This document shows, piece by piece, positions 16,446 to 40,459 of a DNA stretch of 51,967 nucleotides. How positions within the stretch are numbered: the first letter of the stretch is position 1; every line of letters begins with the position of its first letter. The DNA is from a virus (lineage: Duplodnaviria > Heunggongvirae > Uroviricota > Caudoviricetes). The stretch lies in the IMG/VR virus record IMGVR_UViG_3300028999_000002; one strand, given 5' to 3'. The notes beneath the pieces are model-generated. The model worked only from the letters and a program-made list of their open reading frames with translations. It was not told the DNA's origin and did no database searches. Made by a program: the position numbers and the translations under genes.

Positions 16446-17953
16446 TCATGGCATGGCCATGAGCATTTTCACGTCCGCATCACCGTCTGCTGACGTCTGT
16501 GCCACGCCACCCTGTACCGCTGCCGGTGAATGGTTCGCCATGAAATGTTCAAACATGGCGGTTGTGGATGCAGAGACCGGTTCTGCCTTACCTGATCCCG
16601 CAGCCAGCACAGCCCGGGCGCTCTCCACTGTCATTCCCGGGCAGGCAGCCAGCTGTTCAGCCTGCGCCTCAGCCCCTTTTGCCTCATCCAGTGCCATGAT
16701 CTGATCACGGAGTGATGGTCCGGCATCCGCCTGCGGTGAAGCAGCCAGGATCGGGCGGGCTTTTTCCACCGTCATCTCCGGCATCGCCGCCAGCGTTGCC
16801 GCCAGTTGTTCACGACCGTTCGCTTCTTCACACGCCATAATGCGATCGGCTTCACTCTGCGTGGATGCCACCGGCNNNNNNNNNNTGCCGCCGCGGCCAG
16901 AATCGCCCGGGCCTGTTCAACGCTCATGCCCTGTTGTCCTGCCAGCATCGTGGCAAGCTGTTCACGTCCTTTCGCTTCCTGGCATGTCAGGATCCCCATC
17001 ACTCGCTGGTTCTCCTGCGCGGCGGCTTCCGTTGCAGTTAATTGCGGCATAGTGCCTCCTCTGACATTACTGTTCAGCGCCGTGGCCATCACACTGATGG
17101 CATCCGACGCATTGATTAATTCATCCGCCAGCCCGGCCTCAATGCCGGACTGACCTTCAAAAACGGCAGCCTCTGTTCCCGTGACGGCATCAACAGACAG
17201 ACCGGTATACATCGCCACTTTTTCGGCAAACATCCGGCGCGCCGCATCAATCCGCTGCTGCATGTCCTGGCGAACCTCTGCCGGCAACGCTTCAAACTGA
17301 TTGCCATCCACCTTGTGCGCCCCTGAGTAAATCAGCGTGATATCCACACCGGCCTGCGCCAGATGACCGGCATAGCTGACATGGCTCATCATCACGCCAA
17401 TGGAGCCGATACGGGATGTCTGGGTAACCAGCCGTCGGGAGCAGGCCGACGCCAGCAGCATGGCTGCAGAACAGGCCGTGTCATTGCACAGTGCCCAGAC
17501 CGGCTTCTGCTGACGGAGGCGGTAAATCATGTCAGCGCAGTCAAACGCGCCGGCGGCCTGCCCGCCCGGACTGTCAATGTCCAGCAGTACGCCCCGCACC
17601 TGGCTATCCGCCATTGCCTGCTGAAGACAGGCGACAATGCCGTCATAGCCTGTCATTCCGGAAAATGGCCGCATACCACCCAGCCGGTGCACCAGCGTGC
17701 CGGTCACCGGCAGTACAGCAATACCGTTCACCACCCGGTAAACACGGGCCGGTCGTTTACCTCCGGCCATGTACTCGTCCGTTTCAGCCAGCATTCCGGG
17801 AGCATCAAACTGTACCTGCTGTTGTGGTACCGAAAGACTTGCTGCCCCCATCTCGCGCCCGAGCGCGCAAAAGAAAACCCGCGCATAGGCGGGCTCCAGA
17901 AGCAGCGGTTCATTGAATGCTGCGGCAATAATGTGTGAAAGATTACGTCTCAC
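16446..17953 (-). CDS. C: capsid assembly protease C with in-frame scaffold (Nu3-like) region; interrupted by an N10 assembly gap
   Basis: N-terminal 390 aa match lambda gpC (…AFNEPL.LEPAYARVFFCAL…, S49/ClpP-like); C-terminal region contains repeated Nu3-like motifs on both sides of the N run. Confidence 0.8.
16876..16885. other. assembly gap (10 N) inside the C/Nu3 repeat region
   Basis: Run of n characters. Confidence 0.99.
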
Positions 17954-34019: not shown

Positions 34020-34346
34020 TCAAGGACGTGACGGCGTAAAGATAAATTGTCTCTTCACTCCCTGACAGGGGCGATTCTTTTCAAATCGCCATTTCGCCAT
34101 GGCCTTCACCACTTCATCACGAAACAAATTATGAGGCTCTGAGCGGAGAAAAACGATCCGTGTCACAGTCCCATCAGCACCAATATCGAACTTAACCTCA
34201 ACCAGCCCCTTGATATAATTTGCTGCAGCATATTCCGGATATCGTGGATACACCGTCACTAATTGCCGGGGCTCATCAGCTTTTTGCTGCGAGCATCCCA
34301 CTGCCAGGACAGATAACAGAAAAAGTAGTAAAAGGCGTCTTTTCAT
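34020..34346 (-). CDS. lipoprotein with a TonB C-terminal-like domain
   Basis: MKRRLLLLFLLSVLAVGC lipobox signal, then a TonB_C-like segment (…YIKGLVEVKFDIGADGTVTRIVFLRSEPHNLFRDEVVKAMAKWRF…); AGGA SD. Confidence 0.5.
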   Translation of the reverse strand: MKRRLLLLFLLSVLAVGCSQQKADEPRQLVTVYPRYPEYAAANYIKGLVEVKFDIGADGTVTRIVFLRSEPHNLFRDEVVKAMAKWRFEKNRPCQGVKRQFIFTPSRP

Positions 34347-34826
34347 TTTTATTCCTACGGGTCTTATTCTGACAATATATCCTGTGTTCCAGACTGCCAC
34401 ATCACCACATCCTGTGCCATTATCTGACTCACATTACATACATCGCATCGGGATACAGTAGTAGCACTTTCTGTAATACAGCTTCCTGTTTCTTCCACCA
34501 TCGCACCGGGATAAACCCGCGAATCATTAACGCGGTAAAAACCCGGTGTGCATCGTTTTTAATTATTCCCGCACACTCACGCAGAAGGAATTCCCCGTCG
34601 GGCTACGGTCATGGTTAATGCGGGAATACGGCGACGATACAGCGCAGCTAAAAGGGTAATGGACGGATAGACCGGTTTATTTCATTCCACAGGATTCTGA
34701 GTGTCCCCAACTTCCTCCAATAGTCTGAGCCCACCTGTGTAGTTTTAATTTTCATCAATCCATTTAACTATCGTTTAATTGTTGTCACATAGGATTCTGC
34801 CGTTTTTAACAATGCAGGATAATAAG

Positions 34827-35120
34827 ATGAAAAAAATGTTGTTTTCTGCCGCTCTGGCAATGCTTATTACAGGATGTGCTCAACAGACGTTTACTGTTGG
34901 AAACAAACCGACAGCAGTAACACCAAAGGAAACCATCACCCATCATTTCTTCGTTTCGGGAATTGGACAGCAGAAAACTGTTGATGCAGCCAAAATTTGT
35001 GGCGGCGCAGAAAATGTTGTTAAAACAGAAACCCAGCAAACATTCGTAAATGGATTGCTCGGTTTTATTACTTTAGGCATTTATACTCCGCTGGAAGCGC
35101 GTGTGTATTGCTCACAATAA
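34827..35120 (+). CDS. bor: Bor lipoprotein (serum-resistance, Iss homolog)
   Basis: Near-identical to lambda Bor (MKKML…ITGCAQQTFTV…EARVYCSQ). Confidence 0.9.
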   Translation: MKKMLFSAALAMLITGCAQQTFTVGNKPTAVTPKETITHHFFVSGIGQQKTVDAAKICGGAENVVKTETQQTFVNGLLGFITLGIYTPLEARVYCSQ

Positions 35121-35151: not shown

Positions 35152-35613
35152 CTATCTGCACTGCTCATTAATATACTTCTGGGTTCCTTCCAGTTGTTTT
35201 TGCATAGTGATCAGCCTCTCTCTGAGAGTGAAATAATCCCGTTCAGCGGTGTCTGCCAGTCGGGGGGAGGCTGCATTATCCATGCCGGAGGCGGTGGTGG
35301 CTTCACGCACTGACTGACAGACTGCTTTGATGTGCAACCGACGACGACCAGCGGCAACATCATCACACAGAGCATCATTTTCAGCTTTCGCATCAGCTAA
35401 CTCCTTCGTGTATTTTGCATCGAGCGCAGCGACATCACGTTGGCGCACCTGCATGTCAGTAATTGTCGAGTTCGCCAGCTTCAGTTCTCTGGCATTTTTG
35501 TCGCGCTGGGCTTTGTAGGTAATGGCGTTATCACGGTAATGATTAACCGCCCATGACAGACAGACGATGATGCAGATAACCAGAGCGGAGATAATCGCGG
35601 TTAATCTGTTCAT
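35152..35613 (-). CDS. Rz: spanin, inner-membrane subunit Rz
   Basis: 153 aa, lambda Rz-like. Confidence 0.9.
35211..35393 (-). CDS. Rz1: spanin, outer-membrane lipoprotein subunit Rz1 (embedded in Rz, +1 frame)
   Basis: 60 aa with lipobox (…VVVGCTSK…) and Pro-rich tail. Confidence 0.8.
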
Positions 35614-36086
35614 ACCTCAATCTCTCTGACCATTCCGCCCGCTTCTTTGAATTTTGCAATCAGGCTGTCAGCCTTATGCTCGAACTGACCATAACCAGCG
35701 CCCGGCAGTGAAGCCCAGATATTGCTGCAACGGTCGATAGCCTGACGAATATCACCGCGATCAATCATCGGTAAAGCGCCACGCTCTTTAATCTGTTGCA
35801 GTGCCACAGCGTCCTGGCTTTTCGGAGAGAAGTCTTTCAGGCCAAGCTGCTTGCGGTAAGCATCCCACCAGCGTGAAAGAAGTTGATAACGGCCTGCAGC
35901 TGTTGATTTGAGTTTCGGGTTTAGCGTGACAAGTTTGCGAGGGTGATCGGAGTAATCAGTGAAGAGTTCTCCACCGACAATAACGTCATAACCGTGGTTA
36001 CGTGTCGGTTGTCGCCCGTTATCCGTTCCCTCTGACCATGCCACCATATCCAGGAAAGCTTTACGCTGGGAATTTAGTACCTGCAT
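35610..36086 (-). CDS. R: endolysin R (lytic transglycosylase)
   Basis: 158 aa, lambda R-like (…[16 protein letters not shown]…). Confidence 0.95.
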
Positions 36087-36089
36087 AAA

Positions 36090-36416
36090 TTACTCCTTAG
36101 AGCCACCAAACTTGTTACCGATTACTCTCATTGCAGCCCCACGAATAGCATCAACACCGATCAGCCCCACCCCACCACCAATGGCAACAGATAGTGATTT
36201 AGGCCATCCGACATACTCAAGAGCGGATGCAAAAGTCAGCGTCAGAGCGCCACAGAGTAGAATTTCGAGTGTTTTTCGCTTCCAGCCGCCACCACCGCCA
36301 AAATAGGCAATACGTAAACCAGCCATAACAATCGACATAATCACTGCGCCCAGCGGTGTGTCTCCACGCCACCAGCTCTGGACCAACTCCAGCCATGTAT
36401 TTGGGTTATGAGGCAT
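36090..36416 (-). CDS. putative holin (not lambda S-like)
   Basis: 108-aa membrane protein in the S position directly upstream of R; Gly-rich TM segments. Confidence 0.6.
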   Translation of the reverse strand: MPHNPNTWLELVQSWWRGDTPLGAVIMSIVMAGLRIAYFGGGGGWKRKTLEILLCGALTLTFASALEYVGWPKSLSVAIGGGVGLIGVDAIRGAAMRVIGNKFGGSKE

Positions 36417-36560
36417 TTGTAGTTATCTCTCACCTCGCTGATACAGCAGGTGCAAATTGAGGAAACATCATGTACCGCAAATCAGAAGCGGAAACGTCAA
36501 AGAAGCCGAGTCAATGGATAACTGCGGGATAGGCTAGGACCAAGGAATCCCCAGACCCAG

Positions 36561-36593
36561 AAACGACAAAACCCGCTCGATGGCGGGTTTAAG
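36561..36593 (-). terminator. intrinsic terminator-like hairpin (AAACCCGC-n6-GCGGGTTT) upstream of the holin; candidate tR'
   Basis: Perfect 8-bp stem followed by a T-rich tract on the minus strand. Confidence 0.45.
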
Positions 36594-36707
36594 CTGTGTG
36601 GCGAAGTGAGCACACTTAACAGATTACGATATTTTTTGCGTACGCGTTAGTGTTTTGATAGAATTTTCAGCCACATAAAAATTCATTCTTATAATTCGGG
36701 ATATATA

Positions 36708-37883
36708 ATGGATATAACTTGTTTAGAATGTGGCAATGTTCTTGACGACCCAACTGTAGCTTGCGATAAATGCGGTGCCACGCCTCATGTTGTAGTGCTG
36801 GGCAAACAATCGTACTTTCCTATTGGTGCTGTAACAGCAAATCTTGAAAAAAATGATTCAAGAGCATTTGATTATCGATTAGGTGAAGTTTGGGATCTAA
36901 AAAATGAAGTCACATCTGAATTCATAACCAGAATTGAGAAAAAATTTAGCCGAAAAAACAAATTTCATAACTTCCTAGACTCAGATCACAACCCTTCATC
37001 CATTCCTACGATCCTAAAAAAATACATTAATAAAAATAATGAATTCATTGATTTATCTAGAGCTATAATAGAGAAGCTTAAACATAATGCTAATAACGAA
37101 TCGAGAGTTGCCCAACTTCAGGGGGGGAGCGTTGTTTTCATCCACTATAAGTCTACCGAACCAGAGGATTTGGGGAAACTTCTAATCGTAATGGTTGATA
37201 AACAAAGCGCCTATGACTTTGATTCGGATAAGTTGACCCCAACAAGATTAAATCCAATTAATACCGATGCCTTACGGCAGGCTGCGATGTTCGATTTAAC
37301 TTTATTCGAAGCCAGTTATCCAGAAAACAAGGGTGACTCATATGTACATTTCTTGCAAGGTAAATCTAAAAGCGATTTTTTCAAAGACTCATTAGGTTGC
37401 CGACATGATTCGGACAATAAAAGAAGCATTCAGCAATTATTCAGTGCTATAGATATTTTTGCTAGTAAAAACTCACTCGGTCGTGTACTGCGTGATACTA
37501 TTGACAATGAAGTTAAATCCTTACTGGAAAAAAAATCAAAAGATAAACACGGAAATAAGTCCGTTAAGATAGAGGATATTTCAAAAATAATTGACTCATG
37601 CCTGACTGATTCACACAAATGTAAGGGAACGTTTGTCGATTTTGTTAATCTTAATGGTTTCCAGATTGACCCTCAATTTGAACCAACTCCTAAAGCAGCT
37701 GAAAGCGCGCTTACAATTGAAGTGGCAGATAACGACAATAATTTTAAGTTGAAAATAATGCGTGGAGCTATTGGAGACGAAAAGTCAAATAAGCCTGTAA
37801 TTCTCACTGACAACAAATGCGAAATTGTGATAAAATTGAGTCAGGCAAATTATGATGAACTCAAAAGATATAGAGACAGCTAA
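36708..37883 (+). CDS. zinc-ribbon protein with a YejK/NdpA-like (NA37 nucleoid-associated protein family) domain
   Basis: N-terminal CxxC…CxxC; central region aligns with remembered E. coli YejK (GG.V.F.HY…DLT…Y.(T/H)FL.G…DFF.D.LG); AT-rich. Confidence 0.6.
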   Translation: MDITCLECGNVLDDPTVACDKCGATPHVVVLGKQSYFPIGAVTANLEKNDSRAFDYRLGEVWDLKNEVTSEFITRIEKKFSRKNKFHNFLDSDHNPSSIPTILKKYINKNNEFIDLSRAIIEKLKHNANNESRVAQLQGGSVVFIHYKSTEPEDLGKLLIVMVDKQSAYDFDSDKLTPTRLNPINTDALRQAAMFDLTLFEASYPENKGDSYVHFLQGKSKSDFFKDSLGCRHDSDNKRSIQQLFSAIDIFASKNSLGRVLRDTIDNEVKSLLEKKSKDKHGNKSVKIEDISKIIDSCLTDSHKCKGTFVDFVNLNGFQIDPQFEPTPKAAESALTIEVADNDNNFKLKIMRGAIGDEKSNKPVILTDNKCEIVIKLSQANYDELKRYRDS

Positions 37884-37885
37884 TA

Positions 37886-39100
37886 ATGACAATTGCTGAT
37901 GACTTATCAAGATTAGCGCAGATTATTAACGGAGCCTCAAGCAGAGTTGAGGGCTACTACACTGTCATAAGTCTTGAAGAAAGCATTGTTATTGTAAATA
38001 GTTCTGAAATAATTAGACTGTTACAATCTATAGGTTATAAAAAGGCAACAACCTGCATCGAAAATAATGAAATTTGGCTAGATCGCCAAGCTTCATCTTG
38101 GGATGATGCTATAATTTATGAGAATGTTGAGTCTTTTTGGTCTAGAGTAAACACCCAAAACGCTCTTCCGAAAAATTATATCATCGGAACGCCGTTAATA
38201 CTCCCTACTTCTAAGAATGAAAGCATCGAAAAAATCCATATTTTCTTTATGTGGAAAGATATCCTTTCATTAATTTCTGATCATCATAACAGTGACTGCT
38301 CTGTCTTATTTTTCACCAATGAAGACAAAAGTTATACAGTCGAACTCACGCATTTTTTACAATATAGCGAGATTAATCGCTTATCGAACTCGTCTCTTAA
38401 ATATGAAATTATAAAGGAGCTTCTCGACACAATAAAAATCAATGATTTACACAAAAGCGAGCGCAAGCTCGTTATACGCTCAGCCATAAACGAAGTATTT
38501 AAAGCAAATGGTACGTTCAATTTCTTTGACTTGCTTAACTCTACTGAACTCGTCAGGAAAAAATATGATGAACTATATGAGATTTACACAAAGAGGTTTT
38601 CTGTAAATAAAATTCTTAACGAACTCGATGAGAAAAATCTTGAGTTCACGAGTAAAATTAACGAATTCATATCATCTAATCAGACAAAAGCATTGACTAT
38701 TCCCGGTGCATTAATAGCAGCTGGTGGCTTAGTGAAGGCTAATGAAACAACCGAAGCAATATTGATTATCGCAGGACTTTGGATGATAAAAAAAGTCAAT
38801 TACATTTCTATTGAGATATTCAATGAAACATTCGACAACTTACGTTCTCGAGTGGAGTCCGCTTTCGATAAGTATTTAAAGTTTGAAGAAAATAAAGAAA
38901 TCAAAGATAATGCAGATAGTATTAAGAGTAGCATTACAGGTTTGATTGATAAAGCTAAAAAAAGGATGAGAACTGTTAAATATCTCGCATCAGCCATGTT
39001 TTATGGAGGCCTTATTTACGTTGGATATAAACAGTTCCCAGTCTTTTTTGAAAAATCGGCAGTAAATCTATTTTATTTTTTATGCCATACTATAAGCTAA
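37886..39100 (+). CDS. hypothetical membrane protein (C-terminal TM segments), co-operonic with the preceding gene
   Basis: Start 2 nt after the upstream stop (TAATAATG); hydrophobic segments near the C-terminus; AT-rich. Confidence 0.6.
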   Translation: MTIADDLSRLAQIINGASSRVEGYYTVISLEESIVIVNSSEIIRLLQSIGYKKATTCIENNEIWLDRQASSWDDAIIYENVESFWSRVNTQNALPKNYIIGTPLILPTSKNESIEKIHIFFMWKDILSLISDHHNSDCSVLFFTNEDKSYTVELTHFLQYSEINRLSNSSLKYEIIKELLDTIKINDLHKSERKLVIRSAINEVFKANGTFNFFDLLNSTELVRKKYDELYEIYTKRFSVNKILNELDEKNLEFTSKINEFISSNQTKALTIPGALIAAGGLVKANETTEAILIIAGLWMIKKVNYISIEIFNETFDNLRSRVESAFDKYLKFEENKEIKDNADSIKSSITGLIDKAKKRMRTVKYLASAMFYGGLIYVGYKQFPVFFEKSAVNLFYFLCHTIS

Positions 39101-39446
39101 CATTGCTAAACAGCCATCAACAAACCCCATTGCAGTTTGCAGTTCCTTCCTAATTGTGCCATCAGAGCATTTTCTCTTCTTCGCAATAGTGCGTAATGAG
39201 ATACCGATAACAAAGTGGGCGATGATGAGCTCATATTCCTCTGGTTTATACCTTCTCAACCGAGCCACACAACTGTCTATCATGATGCCTTCGTCATCAT
39301 CACACTGAATCCGTGACTTTTTGCCATGAGGTAAAAGTCCCTTGAAACCAGCCGCTATCGGCTGNNNNNNNNNNCCAGTCCACTCCGCTATTGTCTGAAG
39401 CAGCCCAAGCTCCCCAACGATCCATTACTTCATACATATCACGCAT
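39080..39446 (-). CDS. Q-like late antiterminator (Phage_antitermQ-type), interrupted by an N10 assembly gap
   Basis: N-terminal piece MRDMYEVMDRWGAWAASDNSGVDW upstream of the gap and a C-terminal HTH-containing piece (67-aa ORF) downstream; family assignment from memory. Confidence 0.55.
39365..39374. other. assembly gap (10 N) inside the Q-like gene
   Basis: Run of n characters. Confidence 0.99.
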
Positions 39447-39463
39447 CAACTTTCTCCACAAAA

Positions 39464-40459
39464 TCAGGCCAACACACCAATTGCCAGCGCACGATCGATA
39501 AAACGAAATATCAACTCCAGCTGGGAGCCATACTTCTCTTCAAATGCCACGGTATCCGCATGCAGCTCGTCGTGATGCTTTCTGCACAAAGGCAGCACAA
39601 AGAGATCATGCTCTTTTGTACCCATTCCCCCCTGACCGTGGCCTATCAGATGGTGGGGATCATCAGCAGGCTTTCCACAACATGCACACGGCTGCGTCTT
39701 AACCCAGCGCGTGTACTTTTCATTAACCCAGCGGCGACGTTTTGGGCGTAACATAAAAGACTCCGGCGACTCCGGATCCACTTTCAGCGCCAGCACCTTT
39801 TTAGCTTTATCCTGGATGATGCTGGTGGCAGGAACCGAAGGCACAAGGTCACTTTCCCGGGTGACAGATGGCACAACAGGCTTCGGTAATCTCAGTGCCT
39901 TACGGGCTGCACTTTCCGGTAAGGCATCCGCCAGATCATTACGAACCAGCCACCAGCACAGTTCCGGCATTGTCACAACGTGACTGTCATCAAAACCGAG
40001 ATCCCGACGCACGACAGACAACACCCAGCGGGCACAGTTATCCGTTGCCATTGATTCCAGCCGTTCCGTGAACTGGTCACGCAGCTGGTTATCGCAGTGC
40101 CAGCACAGACGAATTGCTCCCGGAGCGTGCCGCATTGTGGTCATGTTCTCGCTGTGCCAGTCAGAATGAGGCCACTGACAGCCCTTTTCACGAAGTAACC
40201 AGCTTTCAAGACATTCCACGCCACCAGCACGACGGATCACTGCCTCATTGCGGAACACGGTCCGAACGGCAGGATCATCCGCCAGCGGTTGTGATGCCGC
40301 CGGAACGGCACCACTGGCGAAAGATGAATAACGTTCCGGCTCTGGCTCCAGCAGGACACGCCCCTGCATAAACAGGGGCATCAGCTCTGAACCTGGCCTG
40401 AACAATACGATCCCCATACGCGGGGCAATTTCAGGCGTCAGTAGTGCTCTCACGGTCAC
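39464..40459 (-). CDS. DUF968-type protein with C-terminal HNH-like nuclease motif
   Basis: C-terminal …CACCGKPADDPHHLIGHGQGGMGTKEHDLFVLPLCRKHHDELH… Cys/His cluster; nin-region position. Confidence 0.6.
   Translation of the reverse strand: MTVRALLTPEIAPRMGIVLFRPGSELMPLFMQGRVLLEPEPERYSSFASGAVPAASQPLADDPAVRTVFRNEAVIRRAGGVECLESWLLREKGCQWPHSDWHSENMTTMRHAPGAIRLCWHCDNQLRDQFTERLESMATDNCARWVLSVVRRDLGFDDSHVVTMPELCWWLVRNDLADALPESAARKALRLPKPVVPSVTRESDLVPSVPATSIIQDKAKKVLALKVDPESPESFMLRPKRRRWVNEKYTRWVKTQPCACCGKPADDPHHLIGHGQGGMGTKEHDLFVLPLCRKHHDELHADTVAFEEKYGSQLELIFRFIDRALAIGVLA

What the first reader, a model, noticed from the sequence alone, without database searches (positions are those of the whole stretch)
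36708..39100. AT-rich two-gene cassette between Q and the lysis genes: zinc-ribbon/YejK-like protein plus membrane protein, a candidate defence or abortive-infection system
Two tightly coupled plus-strand genes (TAATAATG junction) are inserted in the Q-to-S interval, the classic lambdoid moron position (stx genes sit here in Stx phages, as I recall), but in the opposite orientation to the phage late genes and with much lower GC than the surrounding prophage. Gene 1 has an N-terminal CxxC…CxxC zinc ribbon and a domain resembling nucleoid-associated protein YejK/NdpA (DNA binding). Gene 2 is a 404-aa protein with C-terminal transmembrane segments. A DNA-sensing protein paired with a membrane effector is a common abortive-infection architecture; I do not recognise this pair as a named system.
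Basis: partly seen in the sequence, partly recalled or inferred. Interest (0 to 1): 0.8.

Follow-up and report, generated by a model that had tools for sequence, protein, structure and literature searches.

The report
Known prophage anti-phage system DS-1
The two genes are real, but they are the anti-phage system DS-1, already tested in the laboratory: a nucleoid-binding protein paired with a membrane-type partner, carried as cargo by an E. coli prophage.

Summary
Two tightly coupled + strand genes (36708-37883, 391 aa; 37886-39100, 404 aa; junction TAATAATG) form a 33-37% GC block. It lies between the prophage's Q antiterminator and its holin/endolysin/Rz genes, on the opposite strand.

It is not an unnamed system. 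Both proteins pass NCBIfam's curated cut-offs for DS1_1_antiphage and DS1_2_antiphage. Gene 1 is 100% identical to DS-1A, and gene 2 differs by one residue (A131S) from DS-1B. DS-1 was cloned with its native promoter and shown to protect E. coli against Bas1, Bas26, Bas3, T3, T5 and T7 (DeWeirdt, Mahoney and Laub, Science 2026).

A 2026 preprint (PANGU) describes the same architecture, a YejK-like nucleoid protein plus a membrane effector. In its model, phage-driven breakdown of the host chromosome frees the nucleoid protein, which then binds and activates the effector, aborting infection.

My analyses fit that model:
- Gene 1 has a YejK fold.
- The N-terminal domain of gene 2 is acidic, and its hydrophobic helices are conserved.
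- The two genes are adjacent and co-diverge in 20 loci.
- Both are under strong purifying selection.
- The pair rides on mobile elements.

I could not show sequence identity with the PANGU constructs. How the effector kills remains unknown. Verdict: already known, low interest.

The parts
36657..39113 (+). Whole cargo module: own promoter region, DS-1A, DS-1B, and on the other strand the last 11 codons of Q.
   Evidence: Homology to sister prophages that carry other cargo ends at 36656-36666 and resumes at 39114-39126. GC is 0.33-0.37.
36636..36700 (+). AT-rich region with overlapping sigma-70-like promoter candidates for the cassette: TTGCGT-17-TAGAAT with TG; TTGATA-16-AAAAAT; TTCAGC-18-TATAAT.
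   Evidence: Consensus scans only. The number of sites in the region is not above the shuffled expectation. DS-1 worked from its 'predicted native promoter region' in the published test.
36708..37883 (+). DS-1A: 391-aa nucleoid-associated anti-phage protein. It has a four-Cys zinc-ribbon-like N-terminal extension (residues 5-22, nt 36720-36773) and a YejK/NA37-fold body (residues about 36-391).
   Evidence: NF053868 scores 451 bits against a cut-off of 330. Pfam NA37 E 1.2e-23. 100% identical to WP_000355468.1, which is DS-1A. The AF2 model (pLDDT 84) matches YejK 9be2.
37886..39100 (+). DS-1B: 404-aa partner and presumed effector. It has an acidic alpha/beta N-terminal domain (1-185, net charge -9), a highly conserved long helix (220-268), and hydrophobic helical hairpins at 269-305 and 364-403.
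   Evidence: NF053869 scores 375 bits against a cut-off of 315. There is one difference (A131S) from WP_000150292.1 over the 399 residues printed in the paper's table. AF2 pLDDT is 85.6. Charge and hydropathy. No Pfam, PDB-sequence or significant fold match.
39080..39436 (-). Q antiterminator (PF06530), convergent with DS-1B and overlapping it by 21 nt. A 10-base run of N (39365-39374) interrupts the reading frame in the window.
   Evidence: RefSeq annotation of the identical locus. Pfam E 2.7e-47. N-run.
36569..36590 (-). Terminator-like hairpin followed by a T-tract on the late-gene strand, between the cargo and the holin. It lies in the 240-bp spacer conserved among sister prophages and is possibly tR'-like.
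   Evidence: Pattern scan. The spacer is 92-94% conserved in SfII, L023 and L025. Function is inferred, not shown.
36090..36416 (-). Holin (lambda family), the first gene of the lysis cassette that bounds the slot on the left.
   Evidence: Annotation of the identical locus.
35152..36086 (-). Endolysin (35610-36086) and Rz-type lysis protein (35152-35613).
   Evidence: Annotation of the identical locus; ORFs.

Best explanation
The cassette is DS-1, a two-gene anti-phage system carried as cargo by a lambdoid E. coli prophage and expressed from its own promoter in the lysogen.

Proposed mechanism, inferred by homology and architecture with 'type II PANGU':
1. DS-1A is a divergent YejK-fold nucleoid-associated protein that sits on chromosomal DNA in healthy cells.
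2. An infecting phage degrades the host chromosome. T1-like phages, T3/T7 and T5 do this.
3. DS-1A loses its DNA and becomes free to bind the acidic N-terminal domain of DS-1B.
4. This activates DS-1B's C-terminal hydrophobic helical part, which damages or permeabilises the inner membrane.
5. The infected cell stops supporting phage growth (abortive infection).

**Shown:** the identity with DS-1, and the phage-resistance phenotype of an essentially identical construct (published).

**Shown for a type II PANGU operon from E. coli, whose sequence I could not compare:**
- both genes are needed
- neither gene is toxic alone
- the NAP is on the nucleoid and disperses on T4 infection
- the NAP binds the partner's N-terminal domain (Kd 19 nM)
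- escape mutations map to T4 denA

**Inferred:** that DS-1 uses the same trigger, and that the effector acts on the membrane.
For: **Identity**
- NCBIfam equivalog models DS1_1 and DS1_2 are both passed.
- Gene 1 is 100% identical to DS-1A, and gene 2 shows one difference (A131S) over the 399 residues of DS-1B printed in the paper's table. The published locus has the same 2393-bp length.

**Phenotype** (-log EOP; 's' = smaller plaques; the system is marked replicated)

| Phage | -log EOP |
|---|---|
| Bas1 | 7.6 |
| Bas26 | 2.7 (s) |
| Bas3 | 1.7 (s) |
| T3 | 1.7 (s) |
| T5 | 1.0 |
| T7 | 0.9 (s) |
| SECphi27 | none; smaller plaques only |

**Architecture matches type II PANGU**
- YejK fold for gene 1.
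- The basic loop G218-K-S-K-x-D-F-F-K226 aligns with YejK's KGRVGRK loop. From the KxxRK pattern, I infer this is the loop that holds Pag1A's DNA-contact residues K200/R203/K204.
- The partner's N-terminal domain is acidic across the family: mean net charge -8, range 0 to -19.
- The hydrophobic helices in the C-terminal part are conserved.

**The two genes form one module**
- The NAP gene lies immediately upstream of the partner in every locus where the upstream DNA is present. This includes the remote superfamily members sampled. In one of those, L030, the upstream gene is cut by the contig end but still matches the DS-1A profile.
- Spacing is -44 to +18 nt.
- Pairwise identities of the two proteins co-vary (r = 0.94; 0 of 2000 permutations reach it).
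- dN/dS against the Klebsiella copy is 0.06 and 0.08.

**Mobile, defence-type contexts**
- The same Q-holin slot in Klebsiella and Yersinia prophages.
- Next to BstA_C and recombinases in Serratia.
- Next to a Pf filamentous prophage in P. aeruginosa.
- Next to a cI-like repressor in another prophage.

**Phage spectrum.** T3/T7, T5 and T1-like phages degrade host DNA. This is established phage biology; for T1 and T5 the preprint says so too. That fits a genome-damage trigger.
Against: - No sequences or accessions of the PANGU constructs are held. Membership of DS-1 in 'type II PANGU' rests on architecture and on remote homology to a second E. coli NAP pair.
- The phage spectra differ. The PANGU E. 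coli system protects against T4, and T1 and T5 are reported as resistant to it. DS-1 has no T4 row in the published table, and it protects against T5 and the Bas1/Bas3 phages.
- DS-1A has a zinc-ribbon extension that the preprint does not mention (the word 'zinc' does not occur in it). The remote NAP partners lack this extension.
- The acidity of DS-1B's N-terminal domain is moderate (-9 over 185 aa) and not obviously DNA-mimic-like.
- The hydrophobic helices are short and marginal. No significant structural relative exists. Membrane action is not demonstrated.
- Abortive infection has not been tested for DS-1 itself.
Confidence: 0.62

Rival explanations
1. Same two-gene defence system, different trigger. 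The zinc-ribbon extension specific to the DS-1 clade, or the NAP body, recognises a phage component directly: incoming DNA, a DNA-mimic or anti-restriction protein, or a replication protein. Loss of chromosomal DNA would not be the signal. DS-1B is still the effector.
For: - The N-terminal extension is present throughout the DS-1 clade. It is a Cys4 or Cys3-type ribbon in Enterobacterales and Alteromonadales and an acidic Cys-free tail in Pseudomonas. It is absent from housekeeping YejK and from the remote NAP partners.
- DS-1's spectrum differs from the PANGU E. coli system: no T4, but T5 and Bas1/Bas3.
Against: - The phages DS-1 restricts whose biology is known are host-DNA degraders, which the genome-damage model already explains.
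- The ribbon region is modelled with low confidence (pLDDT 51-68). It is replaced by an unrelated acidic tail in Pseudomonas homologues that keep the same partner. It therefore cannot be the universal sensor.
Confidence: 0.15
2. Non-abortive exclusion. DS-1A binds or compacts incoming phage DNA, and DS-1B anchors it at the membrane, blocking entry or replication without killing the cell.
For: - Gene 1 is a DNA-binding nucleoid-protein homologue.
- Bas1 is blocked completely (-log EOP 7.6), which is also seen with direct-immunity systems.
Against: - For the analogous type II PANGU operon, cultures stall at high multiplicity of infection and the NAP leaves the nucleoid on infection.
- Small-plaque phenotypes on several phages are more typical of abortive or partial systems.
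- Type I Pag1A binds DNA without sequence specificity, so self and phage DNA would not be told apart.
Confidence: 0.1
3. Addiction (toxin-antitoxin-like) module that stabilises the prophage, with phage resistance as a side effect.
For: - It is a two-gene operon on mobile elements.
- IS elements interrupt it in two genomes: an IS1 inside gene 1, and an IS5-family element within the matched stretch (rows H12 and H13). This could reflect a cost.
Against: - In the PANGU operons neither gene alone nor both together were toxic.
- DS-1 was stably maintained and protective on a plasmid.
- Neither protein is small or labile in the manner of an antitoxin.
Confidence: 0.05
4. Lysis-accessory genes of the prophage itself, with gene 2 acting as a holin, antiholin or spanin-like membrane protein. 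This is the outcome the first reader named as refuting.
For: - The cassette lies directly next to holin, endolysin and Rz.
- Gene 2 has hydrophobic helices.
Against: - It is on the strand opposite the lysis genes and has foreign GC content.
- The same pair occurs away from any lysis genes: next to a Pf filamentous prophage, in a Serratia island with BstA_C, and in a prophage immunity region.
- Sister prophages with the identical holin carry unrelated cargo in this slot.
- The defence phenotype was obtained without the prophage.
Confidence: 0.02

Closest known systems
DS-1 (DefensePredictor-discovered system 1; working id D390; NCBIfam NF053868 DS1_1_antiphage and NF053869 DS1_2_antiphage). DeWeirdt, Mahoney and Laub, Science 2026, PMC13092281.
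   Same: Same two genes in the same order, in a locus of the same 2393-bp length. DS-1A is 100% identical. DS-1B is identical except A131S over the 399 residues printed. Both pass the curated equivalog cut-offs.
   Different: Only the single A131S substitution. The window's allele is WP_000150293.1, as in APEC O2-211. The paper did not study the mechanism of DS-1.
Type II PANGU (Pag2A nucleoid-associated protein plus Pag2B membrane effector). Li et al., bioRxiv 10.64898/2026.04.06.716658.
   Same: - Two-gene operon.
- YejK-like NAP first, followed by a protein of about 400 aa with an acidic N-terminal domain and a hydrophobic C-terminal part.
- Found in E. coli and on mobile or defence contexts.
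- Anti-phage phenotype.
   Different: - Sequence relationship is unknown, because no sequences are held.
- DS-1A has a zinc-ribbon extension the preprint does not mention.
- The phage spectra differ. PANGU-Ecu protects against T4, and T1 and T5 are reported resistant to it. DS-1 acts on Bas1, Bas3, Bas26, T3, T5 and T7.
- A second, more YejK-like NAP pair exists in E. coli prophages (L025) and could equally be the PANGU-Ecu operon.
Type I PANGU (Pag1A plus the GRel toxSAS Pag1B).
   Same: A YejK-like NAP acts as sensor, released from the nucleoid when the phage degrades host DNA. It activates its partner by binding an acidic domain.
   Different: The effector is a soluble alarmone synthetase, not a hydrophobic helical protein. 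DS-1B has no RelA/SpoT-type domain.
Housekeeping YejK/NdpA (PDB 9be2; NCBIfam NF001557).
   Same: Same fold and Pfam family NA37.
   Different: - About 19% identity.
- Scores 81 bits against the equivalog cut-off of 341.
- Has an extra 35-aa N-terminal extension.
- Is operon-coupled to an effector and prophage-borne.
Other cargo in the same Q-to-holin slot: PADLOC candidate PDC-M53 in Shigella phage SfII, and stx genes in Stx phages (the stx comparison is from general knowledge).
   Same: Same interval between Q and the lysis genes. The PDC-M53 cargo has the same antisense orientation and also abuts the 3' end of Q.
   Different: The proteins are unrelated. From general knowledge, stx genes are co-oriented with the late operon and expressed from it, unlike this cassette.

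Membership tests
DS-1 anti-phage system (NCBIfam equivalogs NF053868 / NF053869) | Protein A scores above the curated cut-off of the DS1_1_antiphage model. | tested here: met
   451.4 bits against a cut-off of 330; E 2.1e-135; profile positions 3-369 of 369.
DS-1 anti-phage system (NCBIfam equivalogs NF053868 / NF053869) | Protein B scores above the curated cut-off of the DS1_2_antiphage model. | tested here: met
   375.3 bits against a cut-off of 315; E 2.7e-112; profile positions 1-337 of 337.
DS-1 anti-phage system (NCBIfam equivalogs NF053868 / NF053869) | The two genes are adjacent, co-oriented, A then B, forming one transcription unit (the paper's criterion is a gap of 30 bp or less). 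| tested here: met
   2-nt spacer, TAATAATG. The criterion is quoted.
DS-1 anti-phage system (NCBIfam equivalogs NF053868 / NF053869) | Sequence identity to the experimentally tested proteins WP_000355468.1 and WP_000150292.1. | tested here: met
   391 of 391 identical for A. For B, 398 of the 399 residues printed are identical (A131S).
DS-1 anti-phage system (NCBIfam equivalogs NF053868 / NF053869) | Confers phage resistance when expressed. | not testable with these tools
   Published for the near-identical construct (Table S7). Not tested for the A131S allele.
Type II PANGU (Pag2A/Pag2B) | A YejK-like (NA37) nucleoid-associated protein is encoded in the operon. | tested here: met
   Pfam NA37 E 1.2e-23; fold match to YejK 9be2.
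Type II PANGU (Pag2A/Pag2B) | Two-gene operon with the partner less than 40 bp away. | tested here: met
   2-nt spacer here, and -44 to +18 nt in 19 related loci. The operon criterion is quoted.
Type II PANGU (Pag2A/Pag2B) | The partner has a C-terminal transmembrane domain. | tested here: inconclusive
   There are conserved hydrophobic helices at 269-305 and 364-403. They are short and of marginal hydrophobicity. No dedicated TM predictor was available.
Type II PANGU (Pag2A/Pag2B) | The partner has an N-terminal acidic 'DNA-mimicking' domain that binds the NAP. | tested here: inconclusive
   The N-terminal domain (1-185) has net charge -9, with a family mean of -8. Surface electrostatics and binding could not be computed.
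Type II PANGU (Pag2A/Pag2B) | Match to the authors' Cluster 2 HMMs, or sequence similarity to PANGU-Ecu. | not testable with these tools
   No sequences, accessions or models are held for the preprint.
Type II PANGU (Pag2A/Pag2B) | The NAP leaves the nucleoid on phage-induced genome degradation, and phage escape maps to a host-DNA nuclease. | not testable with these tools
   Experimental. Reported for PANGU-Ecu with T4 denA.
Housekeeping YejK/NdpA orthologue (NF001557) | Scores above the equivalog cut-off of the YejK model. | tested here: not met
   81.4 bits against a cut-off of 341. It shares the fold but is not an orthologue.
ClyA-type alpha-pore-forming toxins / CorA-type channels (as a model for DS-1B) | Significant structural similarity of the predicted model to solved members. 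| tested here: not met

The most novel reading that the evidence does not exclude
DS-1 may be a distinct branch of the NAP-plus-effector systems rather than a copy of type II PANGU. In this reading:
- Its NAP carries a clade-specific zinc-ribbon or acidic N-terminal extension that tunes or replaces the genome-damage trigger.
- Its partner is not a resident membrane protein. It would be a soluble helical bundle whose short hydrophobic hairpins insert only on activation, as in alpha-pore-forming toxins.

In addition, the slot between Q and the spacer upstream of the holin appears to be a cargo-exchange hotspot. One recombination junction lies inside the 3' end of Q, so each cargo rewrites Q's C-terminus.
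Probability: 0.2. Interest if true: 0.45.

Novelty: already known. Interest (0 to 1): 0.15.

Why it matters
It shows that a sequence-only reading can correctly pick out a real defence system. The system itself has been published, is named in NCBI's annotation models, and has a mechanistic framework. What stays open:
- how DS-1B kills or arrests the cell
- what the zinc ribbon does
- whether DS-1 senses host-genome degradation as PANGU does

The locus also illustrates a prophage slot between Q and the lysis genes where different defence cargos are swapped.

Tried and rejected
- **PADLOC 2023 models:** no hit for either protein. The database predates DS-1.
- **Pfam on gene 2:** nothing meaningful.
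- **PDB sequence search with the gene 2 profile:** nothing at E up to 1.
- **Deposited phage genomes:** none carries the cassette.
- **Rfam on 36000-39600:** nothing.
- **Late promoter (pR') search:** I looked on the late strand in the conserved spacer. No sigma-70-like site with at least 8 of 12 matches turned up, so the late promoter remains unlocated.
- **Link to the PANGU E. coli construct:** I could not tie DS-1 to it by sequence. No supplementary files or accessions are held, and the preprint does not cite DefensePredictor.
- **Lysis-accessory reading:** considered and rejected (see rival explanations).
- **Housekeeping YejK orthologue:** considered and rejected.
Full report
**1. What is in the sequence**

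They are separated by two bases...AGC TAA TA ATG.... GC content falls to 0.33-0.37 between about 36600 and 39200, against 0.50-0.58 on either side. With the local base composition, reading frames this long stay open by chance with probability about 5e-14 and 2e-14.

A 2881-base query across the cassette is 100% identical to the chromosome of E. coli APEC O2-211. RefSeq annotates these flanking genes there:

| Feature | Window coordinates | Strand |
|---|---|---|
| antiterminator Q family protein | 39080-39436 | - |
| phage holin, lambda family | 36090-36416 | - |
| endolysin | 35610-36086 | - |
| Rz-type lysis protein | 35152-35613 | - |

The cassette therefore lies in the Q-to-holin interval on the opposite strand. 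Its 3' end overlaps the 3' end of Q by 21 nt.

**2. What it is**

NCBIfam gives both proteins scores above the curated equivalog cut-offs:
- Gene 1 matches NF053868 'DS1_1_antiphage, nucleoid-associated anti-phage protein' at 451 bits (cut-off 330).
- Gene 2 matches NF053869 'DS1_2_antiphage' at 375 bits (cut-off 315).

The source is the DefensePredictor study (DeWeirdt, Mahoney and Laub, Science 2026, PMC13092281). Its tables list DS-1, working id D390, at NZ_RRVY01000002.1:220602-222994. That locus is 2393 bp, the same length as the finding. It encodes WP_000355468.1 (391 aa, 'nucleoid-associated protein') and WP_000150292.1 (404 aa).

The window's gene 1 is identical to the first protein. 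Gene 2 differs from the second by one residue (A131S) over the 399 residues printed in the table.

[quoted passage not shown] The rows for DS-1 are below; the system is marked as replicated.

| Phage | -log EOP | Smaller plaques |
|---|---|---|
| Bas1 | 7.6 | no |
| Bas26 | 2.7 | yes |
| Bas3 | 1.7 | yes |
| T3 | 1.7 | yes |
| T5 | 1.0 | no |
| T7 | 0.9 | yes |
| SECphi27 | none | yes |

The paper names the YejK domain as newly implicated in defence but does not study how DS-1 works.

**3. Anatomy of the two proteins**

*Gene 1*
- It carries C5xxC8...C19xxC22 and a body that matches Pfam NA37/YejK, E 1.2e-23.
- Its AlphaFold2 model has mean pLDDT 84, with the ribbon region at only 51-68.
- The model matches a single solved structure, E. 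coli YejK 9be2: Foldseek E 1.8e-14 at 19% identity, and profile E 1.1e-19.
- It is not a YejK orthologue. It scores 81 bits against the YejK equivalog cut-off of 341.
- In an alignment of 45 relatives the ribbon cysteines are kept in the closer relatives (Enterobacterales). Pseudomonas relatives have an acidic, cysteine-free tail instead. Marine gammaproteobacterial loci also keep the cysteines.

*Gene 2*
- It has no Pfam family and no solved relative by sequence.
- Its model has pLDDT 85.6. It shows an alpha/beta domain at residues 1-185 followed by long helices.
- The N-terminal domain is acidic: -9 here, with a family mean of -8.
- The best-conserved stretch is the helix 220-268, running into the first hydrophobic helix.
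- Conserved hydrophobic stretches lie at about 269-283, 287-305 and 367-384. They are short and only borderline by hydropathy. A membrane-spanning topology is therefore plausible but not established.
- Fold searches found only generic helical bundles. CorA-type channels and ClyA-family toxins appear among the non-significant or non-specific matches.

**4. The two genes are one module**

- The closer relatives of each protein number 69 and 110 clusters, mostly from Enterobacterales with some Pseudomonas and marine gammaproteobacteria.
- A profile search of 1.84 billion representatives finds 777 relatives of gene 2 at E up to 1e-3, and 69 at E up to 1e-30.
- In every locus where the upstream DNA is present, an NA37 gene lies immediately upstream on the same strand. 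This includes the five remote superfamily members I sampled. In one of them, L030, the upstream gene is cut by the contig end but still matches the DS-1A profile.
- Spacing ranges from -44 to +18 nt.
- Over 20 pairs, the pairwise identities of the two proteins co-vary (r = 0.94; none of 2000 permutations reaches it).
- Against the Klebsiella copy, dN/dS is 0.058 and 0.077.

**5. Where it rides**

- The cassette is in 106 of 5426 complete E. coli genomes at 99% identity or more, always beside Q.
- It is in none of 50,697 deposited phage records.
- In K. pneumoniae (86% identity) and Y. enterocolitica (38% identity) the pair occupies the same slot, antisense and abutting or overlapping the 3' end of Q. 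The holin and lysozyme families there are different.
- Elsewhere it sits beside a BstA_C gene and recombinases (Serratia), beside a Pf filamentous prophage (P. aeruginosa), and next to a cI-like repressor in another prophage.
- Comparison with sister prophages places the cargo edges at 36656-36666 and 39114-39126. The cargo therefore brings its own promoter region and the last 11 codons of Q.
- Sister prophages with the identical holin protein carry other cargo in the slot:
  - PADLOC candidate PDC-M53 in Shigella phage SfII
  - a three-gene TIGR04255 cassette
  - a second NAP pair whose partner is a remote homologue of DS-1B (hhalign probability 96%)

**6. How it most likely works**

A preprint from April 2026 (Li et al., 10.64898/2026.04.06.716658) defines 'PANGU' systems: a YejK-like NAP plus an effector.

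Type II pairs the NAP (Pag2A) with a protein that has an acidic N-terminal 'DNA-mimicking' domain and a C-terminal transmembrane domain (Pag2B). For an E. coli type II operon the authors report:
- Both genes are required.
- Neither gene is toxic alone.
- Cultures stall rather than lyse at high multiplicity of infection.
- Pag2A-GFP is on the nucleoid and becomes diffuse on T4 infection.
- Pag2A binds the N-terminal domain of Pag2B with Kd 19 nM.
- T4 escapes by mutating denA (endonuclease II).

For type I, a NAP mutant that cannot bind DNA makes the pair toxic without phage, and the NAP binds only DNA longer than about 200 bp.

DS-1 has this architecture. The loop that aligns with YejK's KGRVGRK keeps its lysines in DS-1A, as G218-K-S-K-x-D-F-F-K226. 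From the matching KxxRK pattern, I infer this is the loop that holds Pag1A's DNA-contact residues.

The phages DS-1 restricts whose biology is known (T3/T7, T5 and T1-like phages) degrade host DNA. This is established phage biology; for T1 and T5 the preprint says so too.

I therefore favour this chain of events: DS-1A sits on the chromosome; host-DNA degradation releases it; it binds DS-1B; the hydrophobic C-terminal part damages the membrane; infection aborts.

The published data show the identity with DS-1 and the phenotype. The trigger and the effector action are inferred for DS-1.

**7. What does not fit neatly**

- The spectra differ. The PANGU E. coli operon acts on T4, and T1 and T5 are reported resistant to it. 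DS-1 has no T4 row and does act on T5, Bas1 and Bas3. Expression levels also differed: native promoter on a low-copy plasmid versus IPTG induction.
- The zinc ribbon is unexplained.
- The acidity of DS-1B's N-terminal domain is moderate.
- I could not locate the late promoter. No sigma-70-like site appears on the late strand in the conserved 240-bp spacer, although a terminator-like hairpin lies at 36590-36569.

**8. Verdict**

The system is already known and named, so interest is low. The open questions are the effector's action, the role of the ribbon, and whether DS-1 and type II PANGU are the same family.

Noticed in passing
window 36417-39126; loci L002, L023, L024, L025: The Q-to-holin slot is a cargo-exchange hotspot. 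Sister prophages with the identical holin protein (WP_001120496.1) and the same DUF968/KilA-N/RusA neighbours carry different cargo there. SfII carries PADLOC candidate PDC-M53A/B. L023 and L024 carry a three-gene cassette (TIGR04255 family protein plus proteins of 114 and 204 aa). All cargo is antisense to Q and abuts its 3' end. The right junction lies inside Q, so Q's last codons change with the cargo.
   Followed up: partly
L025 2248-4450 (E. coli JX21CE8, NZ_CP178438.1): A second, different NAP pair sits in the same slot. WP_048228897.1 is 344 aa, has no zinc ribbon, is 25% identical to DS-1A and is closer to YejK. WP_000097747.1 is 392 aa and a remote homologue of DS-1B (hhalign probability 96%; NF053869 scores 70 bits, far below the cut-off). 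It may be the E. coli 'type II PANGU' operon of the preprint.
   Followed up: partly
L003-L005 5001-7422 (P. aeruginosa): A DS-1-like pair (NAP 386 aa with an acidic Cys-free N-terminal tail; partner 425 aa, 28% identical to DS-1B) lies next to a Pf-type filamentous prophage (Zot, DUF2523).
   Followed up: partly
window 39365-39374 and 16876-16885: Two runs of exactly ten N. The first interrupts the Q reading frame. The identical APEC O2-211 locus has an intact 118-aa Q, so the N-runs look like masking or an assembly artefact rather than biology.
   Followed up: partly
window 39080-39100: DS-1B and Q converge and overlap by 21 nt. No terminator-like site was found on the + strand after DS-1B. 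Cassette transcription may therefore run antisense into Q, and early or late phage transcription may run antisense into the cassette. The same overlap is seen in the Klebsiella locus L018 and the Yersinia locus L021; in L022 there is a short gap instead.
   Followed up: no
E. coli genomes NZ_CP182203.1 (H12) and NZ_OZ547033.1 (H13): An IS1 sits inside the NAP gene in H13. An IS5-family element (ISKpn26) lies within the matched stretch in H12. A Photorhabdus copy (L017) is broken into fragments. These are occasional decayed copies.
   Followed up: no
window 34833-35120 (+) and 34020-34400 (-): Two further morons lie beyond the lysis genes. One is a Bor/Iss lipoprotein (Pfam Lambda_Bor, E 1.5e-30; annotated iss in APEC O2-211). 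The other is a lipoprotein-like ORF with a TonB C-terminal domain (E 7.3e-13).
   Followed up: partly
window 1-34709 versus L001: The window matches the APEC O2-211 prophage only from 34710 rightwards. The structural-gene side differs, so the prophage is a mosaic and the window comes from a different strain.
   Followed up: no
window 39080-39436 (Q): This small 118-aa Q (PF06530) shows weak similarity to ECF sigma factor region 4 (Pfam Sigma70_ECF, E 6e-4). No sigma-70-type late promoter was found in the conserved spacer upstream of the holin.
   Followed up: no
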